DNA of 64,000 nucleotides. Origin: a virus. The notes beneath the pieces are model-generated. The model worked only from the letters and a program-made list of their open reading frames with translations, did not search any database and had not been told where the DNA came from. A program made the translations under genes and the position numbers. This document shows, one piece after another, positions 27,848-28,786 of the stretch; the stretch's first letter is position 1; each line of letters starts with the position of its first letter. The stretch lies in the IMG/VR virus record IMGVR_UViG_3300022902_000004, positions 62,268-126,267 of that record; one strand, written 5' to 3'.

Positions 27848-28786
27848 TTACTCACTCTCCAACTCACTCTCCAGTTTCCTGAGGCGTGCCTTGAAACCAA
27901 TTGTGTTCCAGTCGTTGATCATTTCTCTCTCACCGGAGAACAAGAGCTCGTCGGGAAGCTGTTTCAGTTCCCTGTACCACGCTGACTTGCTGAAATCATA
28001 ATCACATGGGAGTGCCTCATTCGTCAGCGAAGGAATGAAGTGTCCCGCTGGTTTCATGCGCCCGGTGTTGCCGAAGACCTTGTCGGTGTTCAGGCAAACT
28101 CCGTGGGCAGCACCCATCGCCTCAAGCTTCCTCATCAAGAAAGACCAGCCTGAACCTGCAACCTTGTCAGTTCCGTTGGCATTGAGGTGAACCTTTTTCA
28201 GCTCGCACAGAATCTTTCGACCAACCAGGTTCAGCTCGTCTGTCAGGCCATTTTCACAACGTCTGGCGAAGTAGCCCTTGAGCGCCATGAAGTTGACAAC
28301 ACATGTGAGGTTTGTTTGCTGTCCATGAATTGTCAGGTATCGACAATCTTGTGGAGGAATCCCAGCAGCCAACATCTTGTCGTAAAGCTCCTGTGACTTG
28401 GCAACCAATTCCTCTGCCTCATTTCCAAAACCGAAGTCATAAACATTCGTTGGAACCGTGACAGCATGCTCAATGGCTTCTGGCATCTGCGATGTTACAA
28501 CGTAGGCCCAACCAATGCGGCCCCTTGTAAATTGTGCCAGACCAACCCGGCTCAATCCTTCGACGCGAACCTGGAAACTTAATGCCTCCTGGGGAATCGG
28601 TAGAGCTCGAGCTGCCACAACATCTTCACATGCAGCTCGGTGTGCTGGATTTGTATGATCGTACTCCTGGTTTCGAAGTGAATACCATGTCTCACGATAC
28701 CAATTCCAAAACATCTTGAATGGTTCTGGGTTTCCACTGTCCAATAGGGTAACCTCAATATCCTTGAATCCTCTTGTAGCCGTCAC
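27848..28786 (-). CDS. thyX: ThyX-family (flavin-dependent thymidylate synthase fold) protein, divergent
   Basis: [26 protein letters not shown] resembles ThyX [53 protein letters not shown] resembles ARLVLP...MNARSWMNFFALRC. The RHR signature reads RGR here. Confidence 0.6.
   Translation of the reverse strand: [312 protein letters not shown]

What the first reader, a model, noticed from the sequence alone, without database searches (positions are those of the whole stretch)
27848..28786. ThyX-fold enzyme with the RHR signature changed to RGR and about 80 extra residues, possibly a neofunctionalised pyrimidine C5-modifying enzyme
The core ThyX strings are recognisable: EGLSR, a [16 protein letters not shown]-type helix, and FARRC. 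However the ThyX RHR(x7-8)S motif has His replaced by Gly, and the protein is 312 aa against a typical 220 to 250.

The ThyA paralogs that serve as the hmC/hmU hydroxymethylases of hypermodifying phages show that thymidylate-synthase scaffolds can be recruited to make modified pyrimidines. A divergent ThyX next to the nucleotide-salvage and possible glycosylation genes could be an analogous case, or it may simply be a diverged thymidylate synthase.
Basis: partly seen in the sequence, partly recalled or inferred. Interest (0 to 1): 0.5.

Follow-up and report, generated by a model that had tools for sequence, protein, structure and literature searches.

The report
Oversized virus-only ThyX variant in module
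This phage gene encodes a heavily remodelled, virus-only relative of the flavin-dependent thymidylate synthase ThyX that always travels with enzymes that break down and re-phosphorylate nucleotides, which suggests (but does not prove) that it makes a modified DNA base precursor instead of ordinary thymidylate.

Summary
ORF 27848-28786 (-) encodes a 312-aa ThyX-fold protein with R-G-R in place of R-H-R and a ~110-residue conserved C-terminal extension.

The His-to-Gly change is not the key feature. A sister clade keeps R-H-R, and a deeper clade has R-[E/D]-x. What defines the clade is loss of the canonical H53/R90/Y91 catalytic trio and of two FAD-pyrophosphate contacts, with all other dUMP-binding residues kept, plus the extension.

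The family is uncharacterised. It was found only in phage contigs, in no cultured phage, and in none of 185,579 cellular genomes by pattern scan.

Its context is distinctive. 30 of 39 loci carry both an NDT-like gene and a 5'-deoxynucleotidase (YfbR or NT5C, mutually exclusive), against 0 of 84 canonical-ThyX loci. 34 of 39 carry a small TMK-like kinase. Several lineages add hydroxyl-directed transferases (LicD/lic cassette, glycosyltransferases).

Best reading (about 0.5): a dUMP C5-transferase making a non-methyl product, most plausibly 5-hydroxymethyl-dUMP, with neighbours draining thymidine nucleotides. Main rival (about 0.35): a true thymidylate synthase with outsourced flavin reduction. 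No chemistry was tested. Geobacillus phage GR1 offers a cultured analogue for experiments.

The parts
27848..28786 (-). Extended ThyX-like protein, 312 aa (the finding)
   Evidence: ORF. Pfam Thy1 E=1.3e-15. AF2 pLDDT 92. Foldseek to ThyX and PolB, TMt 0.61-0.75. 138 homologs at 44-95% identity.
28187..28786 (-). ThyX-fold core, residues 1-200
   Evidence: Pfam match covers residues 59-200. The family profile aligns to TmThyX 36-184. Foldseek aligns about 225 columns.
28517..28525 (-). R-G-R (residues 88-90) in place of the ThyX R-H-R motif
   Evidence: Coordinates; conserved in 111 of 112 family members. In canonical ThyX this His contacts the FAD phosphates and ribityl (PMC6514825).
28481..28492 (-). 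S-Q-M-P (residues 99-102) replacing canonical S-Q-R-Y: Ser88 equivalent kept, Arg90 and Tyr91 lost
   Evidence: Invariant in alignment A1. Canonical pattern from the hmmalign table and control loci. Roles of R90 and Y91 from PMC11940539 and PMC8316439.
27851..28186 (-). Conserved C-terminal extension (residues 201-312) with motifs [13 protein letters not shown] (28058-28096) and [10 protein letters not shown] (27974-28003)
   Evidence: Invariant residues W214, C231, D235, G239, G242, R243, F265, S268, E273, E286. pLDDT 92-98. Shared with deeper tiers and with BFVD models A0A8S5SHX2 and A0A8S5M579. No counterpart in any solved ThyX.
28830..29852 (-). Fusion of a MazG/dimeric-dUTPase-like pyrophosphohydrolase (N-terminal) with an NT5C-type 5'(3')-deoxyribonucleotidase (C-terminal), directly upstream
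   Evidence: Pfam NT5C 9e-9 and dUTPase_2 0.006. PHROG 173 and 2643. Conserved in 14 of 39 loci and mutually exclusive with YfbR-type nucleotidase.
26916..27773 (-). Homing endonuclease (NUMOD3 + TnsA-like nuclease) inserted between the ThyX-like gene and its kinase partner
   Evidence: Pfam. In most relatives the kinase follows ThyX-like directly (centre-to-centre 0.7 kb against 1.7 kb here).
26365..26883 (-). Small TMK-like P-loop kinase (172 aa), conserved partner
   Evidence: PHROG 761 thymidylate kinase 3.8e-5. Adjacent to ThyX-like in 22 loci; a related 135-145-aa kinase in 11 more loci and in phage GR1, plus a P-loop protein in L007; 0 of 84 controls.
25894..26364 (-). Nucleoside 2-deoxyribosyltransferase-like protein (156 aa)
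   Evidence: Pfam PF05014 3e-12 and PHROG 7995 5e-25. NDT-type motifs read directly from the sequence (VYLASGWF..Q; DIGTIWEAGYA with the catalytic Glu). Present in 35 of 39 extended loci against 1 of 84 controls.
31005..31373 (-). Stand-alone MazG/dimeric-dUTPase-like nucleotide pyrophosphohydrolase
   Evidence: Pfam dUTPase_2 4.8e-6 and PHROG 12184 5e-15. Present in 21 of 39 extended loci, but also in 30 of 84 controls.
10785..11300 (-). dCMP deaminase (a source of dUMP)
   Evidence: Pfam PF00383 3e-20. Within 10 kb of ThyX-like in 12 of 39 loci.
12047..12649 (-). Thymidine kinase; peripheral, found only in the window's own clade
   Evidence: Pfam TK 1.4e-25. Present in only 5 of 39 loci.
13541..14545 (-). 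SDR nucleotide-sugar epimerase/dehydratase; possible link to decoration, unproven
   Evidence: Pfam Epimerase 5e-55. PHROG 540 4e-65. Homologs in 9 of 39 extended loci and 0 of 84 controls.
15425..16249 (-). GT-A-fold glycosyltransferase with a DxD-type motif; acceptor unknown
   Evidence: AF2 pLDDT 87. Foldseek to WrtF, RmlT, TarS, TarP and GalNAc-T2 at E about 1e-11. Invariant D88 and D89. A homolog lies in a generic sugar cluster without ThyX-like.

Best explanation
The gene encodes a member of a virus-only, extended clade of ThyX-fold enzymes. The enzyme still binds dUMP and probably still uses a reduced flavin, but it has lost the canonical catalytic loop. I propose that it transfers the folate-derived methylene to C5 of dUMP but does not finish with the usual reduction to a methyl group. 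It would instead release a C5-functionalised nucleotide, most plausibly 5-hydroxymethyl-dUMP formed by hydration of the exocyclic-methylene intermediate. The adjacent small TMK-like kinase would phosphorylate that product towards the triphosphate for incorporation by the phage polymerase. The MazG-type pyrophosphatase, the 5'-deoxynucleotidase (here fused as MazG-NT5C) and the NDT-like enzyme would run thymidine nucleotides down to nucleoside and base: dTTP to dTMP to dT to thymine. Base swapping (dT plus uracil giving dU) is also possible, and thymidine kinase could return that dU to dUMP. In related lineages a hydroxyl-directed transferase would then decorate the hydroxymethyl group. Shown here: the fold, the residue pattern, the clade structure, the gene associations and their specificity. 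Inferred: the substrate (dUMP), flavin use, the product, the specificities of the neighbours and any DNA modification.
For: (1) dUMP-binding residues are invariant: R80, Q85, R88, R90, S99, R149, R176 correspond to Tm R74, Q75, R78, R80, S88, R147, R174. The R174 equivalent, which activates uracil, is kept, which argues for a uracil nucleotide (PMC8316439). (2) The H53/R90/Y91 trio is replaced by L62/M101/P102 throughout the family. Y91 is described as strictly conserved, as a solvent-excluding lid over C5/N5, and as giving about 1000-fold slower chemistry when mutated. The FAD-pyrophosphate contacts H79 and R165 are also lost. (3) Module specificity: both NDT-like and 5'-nucleotidase occur in 30 of 39 extended loci against 0 of 84 canonical loci of equal mean length. 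After de-replication at 60% identity this is 9 of 10 against 0 of 22 clusters, Fisher p=3.6e-7. The nucleotidase is supplied by two unrelated, mutually exclusive families (YfbR 17, NT5C 14), and gene order varies, which indicates selection for the activity. (4) A small TMK-like kinase occurs in 34 of 39 modules and 0 of 84 controls. (5) Hydroxyl-directed transferases lie inside the operon in related lineages. L030 has choline kinase, a LicC-like enzyme, a BCCT transporter and LicD between the kinase and dUTPase. L031 has LicD, an SDR and an IspD-like enzyme. LicD occurs in 5 extended loci and 0 controls. (6) Cultured Geobacillus phage GR1 has NDT, YfbR, a glycosyltransferase, the small kinase and a 322-aa atypical ThyX that lacks R-Y. 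The same GT and kinase families in Bacillus phage G accompany a ThyA-family enzyme with Asp at the E. coli N177 position, a cytosine-type signature. (7) No ThyA and no second ThyX lies within 10 kb in the held sequence of any of 39 loci (L005's annotated ThyA-family gene lies at the locus edge, only 26 nt held), and none in the window's roughly 50 largest ORFs. (8) No relatives in 185,579 cellular genomes by pattern scan. (9) Chemical plausibility: ThyX catalysis passes through an exocyclic methylene that is normally reduced (PMC8989533). From my own knowledge, quenched ThyX reactions yield 5-hydroxymethyl-dUMP (Mishanina et al. 2012).
Against: No product chemistry or DNA composition was tested, so everything about the product is inference from context. 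Loss of R90 and Y91 affects the methylene-transfer step that precedes the branch between methyl and hydroxymethyl products, so it shows a changed mechanism and not a changed product. The window's own clade encodes thymidine kinase, which makes dTMP from thymidine and sits oddly with thymidine exclusion unless it serves deoxyuridine. Fre/FNR-like or nitroreductase-type flavin reductases occur in the module of relatives, which fits an enzyme that consumes reducing equivalents, that is, reductive methylation. dCMP deaminase, dUTPase, a thymidylate synthase and a thymidylate kinase together also form the ordinary dTTP pathway. The control set is dominated by roughly 50-kb Firmicutes-type phages, and the search seeds came from extended loci. 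The window's GT-A and epimerase lie 12-14 kb away, and a homolog of the GT lies in a generic sugar cluster. The LicD cassettes could serve surface decoration. GR1's extension is not homologous to this family's, so GR1 is an analogue and not an ortholog.
Confidence: 0.5

Rival explanations
1. It is a bona fide thymidylate synthase (dUMP to dTMP) of an unusual two-component type. The enzyme has lost its own NADPH-oxidase and gating apparatus (H53/Y91/R90) and receives reduced flavin from a partner reductase. New invariant residues (H107, H154, Q156) and the C-terminal extension would take over the lost roles. The kinase is then a thymidylate kinase. The nucleotidase, NDT and thymidine kinase form a deoxyribose-salvage route that converts other deoxynucleotides into dU or dT.
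For: It is the only thymidylate-synthase-like gene in a block that also has dCMP deaminase, thymidine kinase, a TMK-like kinase and RNR. dUMP-binding residues and several flavin contacts (E67, R88, R90, N165, R176) are invariant. Fre/FNR-like reductases occur in L009 and eight close relatives (weakly also in L001), and GR1 has a nitroreductase next to its ThyX-like gene, which fits stoichiometric flavin reduction. No second thymidylate synthase was found nearby. Public annotations call relatives thymidylate synthase.
Against: Canonical ThyX loci never show the NDT plus nucleotidase pairing or the dedicated kinase (0 of 84), so the module is not a general accompaniment of dTMP synthesis. A pyrophosphatase fused to a nucleotidase destroys a nucleotide instead of supplying one. 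LicD and glycosyltransferase cassettes inside the operon have no role in this model. The family was found only in viruses, although dTMP synthesis is universal. One contig also carries a ThyA-family gene about 10 kb away. Thymidine kinase is present in only 5 of 39 loci.
Confidence: 0.35
2. It acts on a different substrate or has a non-synthase role. Options include a ribonucleotide or cytosine-nucleotide C5-transferase analogous to PolB, a producer of a free modified base via the NDT-like enzyme as in the MilA/MilB logic, or a non-catalytic nucleotide-binding subunit that poisons the host ThyX tetramer.
For: PolB shows that the ThyX fold can shift substrate, and PolB is among the structural matches (4p5b, TM 0.69). 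Pairs of a thymidylate-synthase-like enzyme and an NDT-family glycosidase make free modified bases in nucleoside-antibiotic pathways (own knowledge). Several FAD contacts are lost, and tier-2 relatives carry an acidic residue at the FAD-phosphate position.
Against: The uracil-activating Arg (R176) and the full set of dUMP phosphate and ribose contacts are invariant. dCMP deaminase and dUTPase, both dUMP suppliers, recur in the module. The adjacent dNMP-type kinase points to a nucleotide destined for DNA. Very strong conservation of about 55 invariant positions, including polar residues in the extension, argues for a catalytic protein.
Confidence: 0.1

Closest known systems
Canonical flavin-dependent thymidylate synthase ThyX / FDTS (EC 2.1.1.148; T. 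maritima TM0449 1O26, M. tuberculosis 2AF6, PBCV-1 2CFA)
   Same: Same fold (Foldseek TM 0.61-0.75) and the Pfam Thy1 domain. Conserved equivalents of Tm E58, R74, Q75, R78, R80, S88, R147, N163, R174 and E182.
   Different: Only 15-18% identity. R-G-R for R-H-R. The H53/R90/Y91 trio and R165/H178 are replaced. About 110 extra conserved C-terminal residues. New invariant residues H107, H154, Q156, D183, N186, R190. Found only in viruses. Different gene neighbourhood.
PolB, the ThyX-fold UMP/dUMP C5-methylase of polyoxin biosynthesis (PDB 4P5A/4P5B; PMC5003785)
   Same: The one demonstrated case in which the ThyX scaffold was recruited to a non-housekeeping pyrimidine C5 modification. Comparable structural similarity (TM 0.69).
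   Different: PolB is still a FAD-dependent methylase, differs from ThyX by two internal loops rather than a C-terminal extension, and is encoded in a Streptomyces antibiotic cluster. There is no specific sequence relationship: the family profile did not retrieve PolB from the PDB.
ThyA-superfamily pyrimidine hydroxymethylases of phages (T4 gp42 dCMP hydroxymethylase; dUMP hydroxymethyltransferases of SPO1, SP10, PhiW-14, M6 and ViI)
   Same: The proposed role is the same: a thymidylate-synthase homolog makes the hydroxymethyl nucleotide before replication, encoded near the polymerase, with a dedicated kinase, exclusion of the canonical nucleotide and later decoration (PMC5889632; PMC8989533).
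   Different: Unrelated fold and chemistry: a Cys nucleophile and no flavin. No ThyA-family gene was detected in the held sequence of any of the 39 loci (L005's annotated ThyA-family gene lies at the locus edge). 5-HMUDK and aGPT-Pplase were not looked for.
Oversize Thy1 proteins of hypermodified or uncharacterised cultured phages (Bacillus phage SP-15 gp9 and gp130; Geobacillus phage GR1 UDY80709.1)
   Same: ThyX-fold proteins much longer than 250 aa. GR1's lacks the R-Y pair and sits with NDT, YfbR, the small kinase and a glycosyltransferase. The SP-15 authors hypothesised that one of its Thy1 proteins is a hydroxymethyluridylate synthase (PMC5977210).
   Different: Their extensions do not align with this family's (hhalign covers the core only; SP-15 TMq 0.42). 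GR1 keeps R-H-R. None has been characterised biochemically.

Membership tests
ThyX / FDTS (Pfam Thy1 PF02511) | Thy1 domain above the Pfam gathering score and the ThyX fold | tested here: met
   58.1 bits against a cut-off of 24.8. Foldseek probability 1.00 to ThyX chains, TMt up to 0.75.
ThyX / FDTS | Signature motif R-H-R-(x)7-8-S | tested here: not met
   The protein has R-G-R-x8-S. The two Arg and the Ser are kept, and His is replaced by Gly in 111 of 112 members.
ThyX / FDTS | Strictly conserved catalytic-loop Tyr (Tm Y91) with its partner Arg (Tm R90), motif S-Q-R-Y | tested here: not met
   S-Q-M-P is invariant in the family. 80 of 84 control loci have S-Q-R-[Y/F]. Importance of these residues.
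ThyX / FDTS | dUMP-binding residues (Tm R74, Q75, R78, S88, R147, R174) | tested here: met
   R80, Q85, R88, S99, R149 and R176 are invariant. This rests on sequence alignment only, with no ligand modelling.
ThyX / FDTS | FAD pyrophosphate/ribityl contacts (Tm H79, R165) and the flavin/folate-stacking His53 | tested here: not met
   G89, M167 and L62 occupy these positions. Other flavin contacts (E67, R88, R90, N165, R176) are kept, so flavin use is uncertain and not excluded.
ThyX / FDTS | Catalyses dUMP to dTMP with CH2-THF, FAD and NADPH; complements thyA; homotetramer | not testable with these tools
   Needs enzymology, genetics or multimer modelling.
PolB-type UMP C5-methylase | ThyX fold with PolB-specific Loop 1 and Loop 2 and a nucleoside-antibiotic cluster context | tested here: not met
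   The fold matches (4p5b), but the profile does not retrieve PolB, the extra residues are C-terminal, and the context is a phage replication module.
Phage thymidine-hypermodification pathway (Lee et al. 2018) | ThyA-family dUMP hydroxymethyltransferase | tested here: not met
   No ThyA homolog in the window or in the held sequence of 39 related loci; L005's annotated ThyA-family gene lies at the locus edge with only 26 nt held.
Phage thymidine-hypermodification pathway (Lee et al. 2018) | 5-hmdU DNA kinase (5-HMUDK) and aGPT-Pplase acting after replication | not tested
   No profiles for these families were available to me. Many window ORFs have no Pfam or PHROG hit.
Classical thymine-replacing phage nucleotide programme (hmU and U phages) | Phage-encoded dTTP/dUTP pyrophosphatase, dTMP 5'-nucleotidase, dCMP deaminase and a dedicated dNMP kinase | tested here: inconclusive
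   Genes of all four enzyme classes are present, but their substrate specificities are unknown.

The most novel reading that the evidence does not exclude
This clade is a ThyX-fold, flavin-using dUMP hydroxymethylase (or other non-reductive C5-transferase). That would be a second, independently evolved entry point to 5-hmdU-type DNA, replacing the ThyA-type enzyme used by every characterised thymidine-hypermodifying phage. It would be the core of a portable cassette (pyrophosphatase, nucleotidase, NDT, kinase) that swaps thymidine out of the nucleotide pool. In different lineages the cassette would be coupled to different decorating enzymes. These include a complete phage-borne lic pathway, which would imply phosphocholine- or polyol-phosphate-modified thymidine in DNA, and glycosyltransferases, which would imply base-J-like glycosyl-hmU.
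Probability: 0.4. Interest if true: 0.85.

Novelty: new variant of a known kind. Interest (0 to 1): 0.68.

Why it matters
All known phage routes to 5-hydroxymethyl-pyrimidine DNA start from ThyA-type enzymes. A ThyX-fold equivalent would be a new enzyme chemistry: flavin-mediated methylene transfer ending without reduction. It would also give a new genomic marker for finding modified-DNA phages in metagenomes. The cassette is widespread across marine jumbo-type, T4-like, sipho-like and temperate phage contigs, and gut-virome proteins match structurally, so a sizeable group of uncultured phages might carry unrecognised thymidine modifications. That would affect sequencing bias, restriction and CRISPR evasion, and the search for enzymes useful in biotechnology. 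Even if the enzyme proves to be a true thymidylate synthase, it would show that ThyX catalysis can proceed without the supposedly essential Tyr/Arg/His trio and with outsourced flavin reduction. That is relevant to ThyX mechanism and to inhibitor design.

Tried and rejected
- **Single-sequence PDB search** found nothing significant.
- **Profile PDB search** was topped by designed pentatricopeptide-repeat proteins. These are repeat artefacts made of many sub-threshold matches to one helix and were discarded.
- **First residue map** suggested loss of the Tm R74 equivalent. Alignment of 146 relatives showed this was a gap artefact and that window R80 is that Arg.
- **His-to-Gly as the diagnostic change** was rejected because the R-H-R sister clade shares every other feature and the module.
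- **GR1's glycosyltransferase as a T4 AGT homolog** rests only on a PHROG label. phmmer found no PDB match to T4 AGT, so I do not rely on it.
- **Phage G gp319 as another oversize ThyX** was wrong; it is ThyA-family.
- **The window's GT-A as a DNA glycosyltransferase** could not be supported. A homolog lies in a generic sugar cluster.
- **Cultured relatives:** megablast of the region, tblastn with the ThyX-like protein and tblastn with DnaE found no cultured relative closer than about 33% identity.
- **Source names** for NCBI-held family members were uninformative.
- **Cellular genomes:** the scan found nothing.
- **afdb50 structural library** was unavailable.
- **L005's ThyA-family gene** could not be retrieved, because it lies just beyond the locus edge.
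- **Literature searches** found no characterisation of this family or of the module.
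Full report
**Observation.** It is a real ThyX-fold protein. Pfam Thy1 scores 58 bits against a 24.8-bit cut-off. An AlphaFold model built on 40 family members has pLDDT 92.2 and pTM 0.90. Foldseek matches T. maritima, M. tuberculosis and C. glutamicum ThyX and the PolB methylase at E about 3e-8 to 1e-7, with TM 0.61-0.75 normalised to the target and only 15-18% identity over about 225 columns. No PHROG family matched, and no PDB chain matched significantly by single-sequence search. 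The extra length is a C-terminal extension of about 110 residues.

**The family.** A search of 5.8 billion proteins gave 138 relatives, nearly all 290-340 aa, from marine and other metagenomes. Most are unnamed or named 'hypothetical protein'; three are labelled 'thymidylate synthase ThyX'. R-G-R is present in 111 of 112 members where the region could be read. It is followed by an invariant S-Q-M-P. The extension is as conserved as the core (motifs [19 protein letters not shown], LLFxGExEM) and is modelled at pLDDT 92-98. No cultured phage has an ortholog; the best tblastn hits are ordinary ThyX genes at 24-33% identity over the core. A pattern scan of 185,579 species-representative bacterial and archaeal genomes found no relative.

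**Residue mapping.** I verified my T. maritima ThyX sequence against 1KQ4 and aligned it, plus 146 relatives from an exhaustive profile search, to the family profile.
- Canonical ThyX reads R...[A/H]Q..RHR...SQRY, N.R, and R...E at the diagnostic positions.
- The family keeps the equivalents of Tm E58, R74 (window R80), Q75, R78, R80, S88, R147, N163, R174 and E182.
- It replaces H53 (L62), H79 (G89), R90 (M101), Y91 (P102), R165 (M167) and H178 (G180).

The literature gives the roles of these residues. The RHR motif and the R165 equivalent bind the FAD phosphates and ribityl, and the Tyr forms a lid over uracil C5 and flavin N5 (PMC6514825). Ser88 and Tyr91 are 'strictly conserved' and critical. 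Y91 mutation slows flavin oxidation about 1000-fold. R90 is thought to acidify Y91. The H53-Y91 hydrogen bond gates the reduced enzyme (PMC11940539 and PMC8316439). The family has therefore kept the nucleotide-binding frame, including the uracil-activating Arg, and lost the canonical catalytic and gating trio together with two flavin-phosphate contacts.

**Clade structure.** The His-to-Gly change is not the decisive event. A sister clade (P0147, P0150, P0158, P0163) keeps R-H-R yet has SQMP and the extension. A deeper tier of 315-338-aa proteins shares the extension but has R-[E/D]-[K/Q/N/R], which puts an acidic residue where the FAD phosphate binds. Predicted structures of two uncultured gut-virome phage proteins match over their full length: A0A8S5SHX2 at 38% identity and TM 0.83, and A0A8S5M579 at 21% identity and TM 0.73.

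**Context in the window.** The gene lies in the replication and nucleotide-metabolism block of a large phage. That block encodes DnaE, a PolA fragment, RecA, DnaB, RNR, a ligase, Dam and a gp32-like protein.
- Directly upstream is a MazG-like/NT5C fusion, that is, a pyrophosphatase joined to a 5'-deoxynucleotidase.
- Downstream come a homing endonuclease, a TMK-like kinase and an NDT-like gene.
- The window also holds a dCMP deaminase, a thymidine kinase, a second MazG-like gene and an Fpg/Nei glycosylase.
- No ThyA or canonical ThyX was found.

**Context elsewhere.** I collected 39 contexts, comprising the window and L001-L038, and scored them with iterative profile searches.
- NDT-like genes occur in 35 of 39.
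- A 5'-nucleotidase occurs in 31 of 39, as YfbR/HD (17) or NT5C (14), and never both.
- Both an NDT-like gene and a nucleotidase occur in 30 of 39.
- A small TMK-like kinase occurs in 34 of 39, counting two related forms and one P-loop protein.
- MazG-like genes occur in 21, dCMP deaminase in 12, dUTPase in 11, and thymidine kinase in only 5.

The contexts span phages with DnaE, PolA or PolB polymerases, T4-like baseplates, siphovirus tails and an integrase. Gene order varies among them.

**Control.** The control set was 84 canonical ThyX loci: 80 from the same viral collection and 4 from cultured phages. Mean locus length matched, and 80 of the 84 carry RHR...SQR[Y/F]. They gave NDT-like 1, nucleotidase 0, both 0 and this kinase 0. 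After de-replication at 60% identity the contrast is 9 of 10 against 0 of 22 clusters, Fisher p=3.6e-7. The caveats are redundancy in both sets, a control dominated by Firmicutes-type phages, and search seeds taken from extended loci.

**Decorating enzymes.**
- In L030 the ThyX-like gene and the small kinase are followed, in the same operon and before dUTPase, by a choline kinase, a LicC-like nucleotidyltransferase, a BCCT transporter and LicD.
- In L031 the same slot holds LicD, an SDR and an IspD/TarI-like cytidylyltransferase.
- LicD occurs in 5 extended loci and no control.
- Cultured Geobacillus phage GR1 has NDT, thioredoxin, YfbR, a 459-aa glycosyltransferase, the small kinase, RNase H, a nitroreductase and a 322-aa Thy1 protein. 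That protein has the motif IRHRTFSFSAQC and matches the family profile at hhalign probability 97.7% over the core only.
- The only cultured homologs of the GR1 glycosyltransferase are in Bacillus phage G. There they flank a ThyA-family enzyme with Asp at the E. coli N177 position, a dCMP deaminase, a related kinase, a HAD phosphatase and a sugar nucleotidyltransferase.
- In the window, the ORF at 15425-16249 is a confirmed GT-A glycosyltransferase next to an SDR epimerase. A homolog of this GT lies in a generic sugar cluster, so its target is open.

**Flavin hints.** A Fre/FNR-like protein sits between the kinase and NDT genes in L009 and eight close relatives, with a weaker match in L001. GR1 has a nitroreductase-type reductase. 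The window has neither. This suggests the clade still uses reduced flavin but has outsourced its reduction.

**Interpretation.** The data show a distinct, virus-only ThyX variant embedded in a specific and portable nucleotide cassette.
- The explanation that accounts for the most observations is that the enzyme makes a C5-modified dUMP, with 5-hydroxymethyl-dUMP the simplest candidate.
- ThyX chemistry passes through an exocyclic methylene that is normally reduced.
- The dedicated kinase would activate this product.
- The pyrophosphatase, nucleotidase and NDT would remove or recycle thymidine nucleotides.
- This would mirror, with non-homologous parts, the programme of classical thymine-replacing phages. 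It would also mirror the known ThyA-based hypermodification pathways, whose genes also cluster near the polymerase.
- Hydroxyl-directed transferases in the operon would then have an acceptor.

I give this about 0.5.

The main rival, at about 0.35, is a true thymidylate synthase of a two-component type.
- The flavin reductases, the thymidine kinase and the absence of another synthase favour it.
- The loss of R90 and Y91 does not by itself predict a different product.
- Other roles take about 0.1.

No chemistry was tested here. GR1 is a practical experimental handle.

**Novelty.** The fold and domain are known, and public databases label relatives as thymidylate synthases. I found no paper describing this clade, its residue pattern or its module. 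The nearest statements are the PolB precedent and an untested guess about SP-15 gp130. I rate it a new variant of a known kind.

Noticed in passing
L030 10879-15619; also L028, L029, L032 (IMG/VR contigs from 3300045988 and 3300032030): A complete phosphocholine (lic-type) pathway sits inside a phage nucleotide-metabolism operon, between the ThyX-like/kinase pair and dUTPase. It comprises a choline kinase, a LicC-like nucleotidyltransferase, a BCCT choline transporter and a LicD transferase. The target (DNA, virion or host surface) is unknown.
   Followed up: partly
L031 11284-13730: In a sister phage the same slot holds LicD, an SDR reductase/epimerase and an IspD/TarI-like cytidylyltransferase, which is a CDP-polyol type donor pathway. 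This looks like a swappable donor cassette around a constant LicD.
   Followed up: partly
L039 (Geobacillus phage GR1, OK896991.1 23909-29720): A cultured phage carries an analogous module: NDT, thioredoxin, YfbR-like HD protein, a 459-aa glycosyltransferase, a small TMK-like kinase, RNase H, a nitroreductase and a 322-aa atypical Thy1 protein that keeps RHR but lacks R-Y. The paper I read on GR1 (PMC10237291) reports nothing on its DNA chemistry.
   Followed up: partly
L125 (Bacillus phage G, NC_023719.1 about 223187-234494): Phage G gp319, annotated 'thymidylate synthase' (348 aa), is ThyA-family with Asp at the E. coli N177 position, a cytosine-type signature. It is flanked by two glycosyltransferases homologous to GR1's, a dCMP deaminase, a kinase, a HAD phosphatase and a sugar-1-phosphate nucleotidyltransferase. 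This suggests a glycosylated hydroxymethyl- or methyl-cytosine system.
   Followed up: partly
L016 11441-12046; also L009 8480-9001, L012, L013, L015, L017, L019, L026, L027: A small Fre/FNR-like protein with an AGGxGIS NAD(P)H-binding motif lies between the kinase and NDT genes in L009 and in eight close relatives of this window (L001 has a weaker match). The window itself lacks it. It may be the flavin reductase partner of the ThyX-like enzyme.
   Followed up: partly
window 26916-27773, 14532-15371, 12673-13539(+), 19817-20728, 32224-33021, 45768-46772: The window is unusually rich in homing-endonuclease-type ORFs (NUMOD3 with a TnsA-like nuclease, DUF7487, Endo-I-like, DUF559). The ORF at 32224-33021 looks GIY-YIG-like by eye only and was not scanned. 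One ORF (26916-27773) splits the otherwise adjacent ThyX-like and kinase genes, and relatives L011, L019, L026 and L027 show the same widened spacing.
   Followed up: partly
window 22249-23178(+) and 23169-24119(+): Two adjacent plus-strand ORFs (309 and 316 aa, no Pfam hit) both match the same single gene in L003 and L004 (37% and 34% identity). This points to a tandem duplication on the strand opposite to almost all other genes.
   Followed up: no
window 16257-19820, 55806-56921, 56953-60015, 60204-63350: The phage encodes a full DnaE-type Pol III alpha and also a 371-aa family-A polymerase fragment. Next to the fragment are two ORFs of more than 1000 aa with no Pfam match.
   Followed up: no
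window 8295-8984; L001 14417-15088: A phage protein with an Fe/Mn superoxide dismutase C-terminal domain (Pfam 4e-10) is conserved near the dCMP deaminase in a distant relative.
   Followed up: no
window 33024-33671; L008 6488-7174; L006 17649-18365: DNA glycosylase-type genes recur near the module: Fpg/Nei in the window and L003, a weak HhH-GPD-like hit directly after ThyX-like in L008, and a weak OGG_N hit in L006. Their relation to any base modification is unknown.
   Followed up: no
L005 20066-20091 (locus edge; ENA contig NODE_3_length_62287): One contig with the extended ThyX-like gene also has a 198-aa ThyA-family (PF00303) gene about 10 kb away. Its sequence lies beyond the retrievable stretch, so its type could not be determined.
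   Followed up: no
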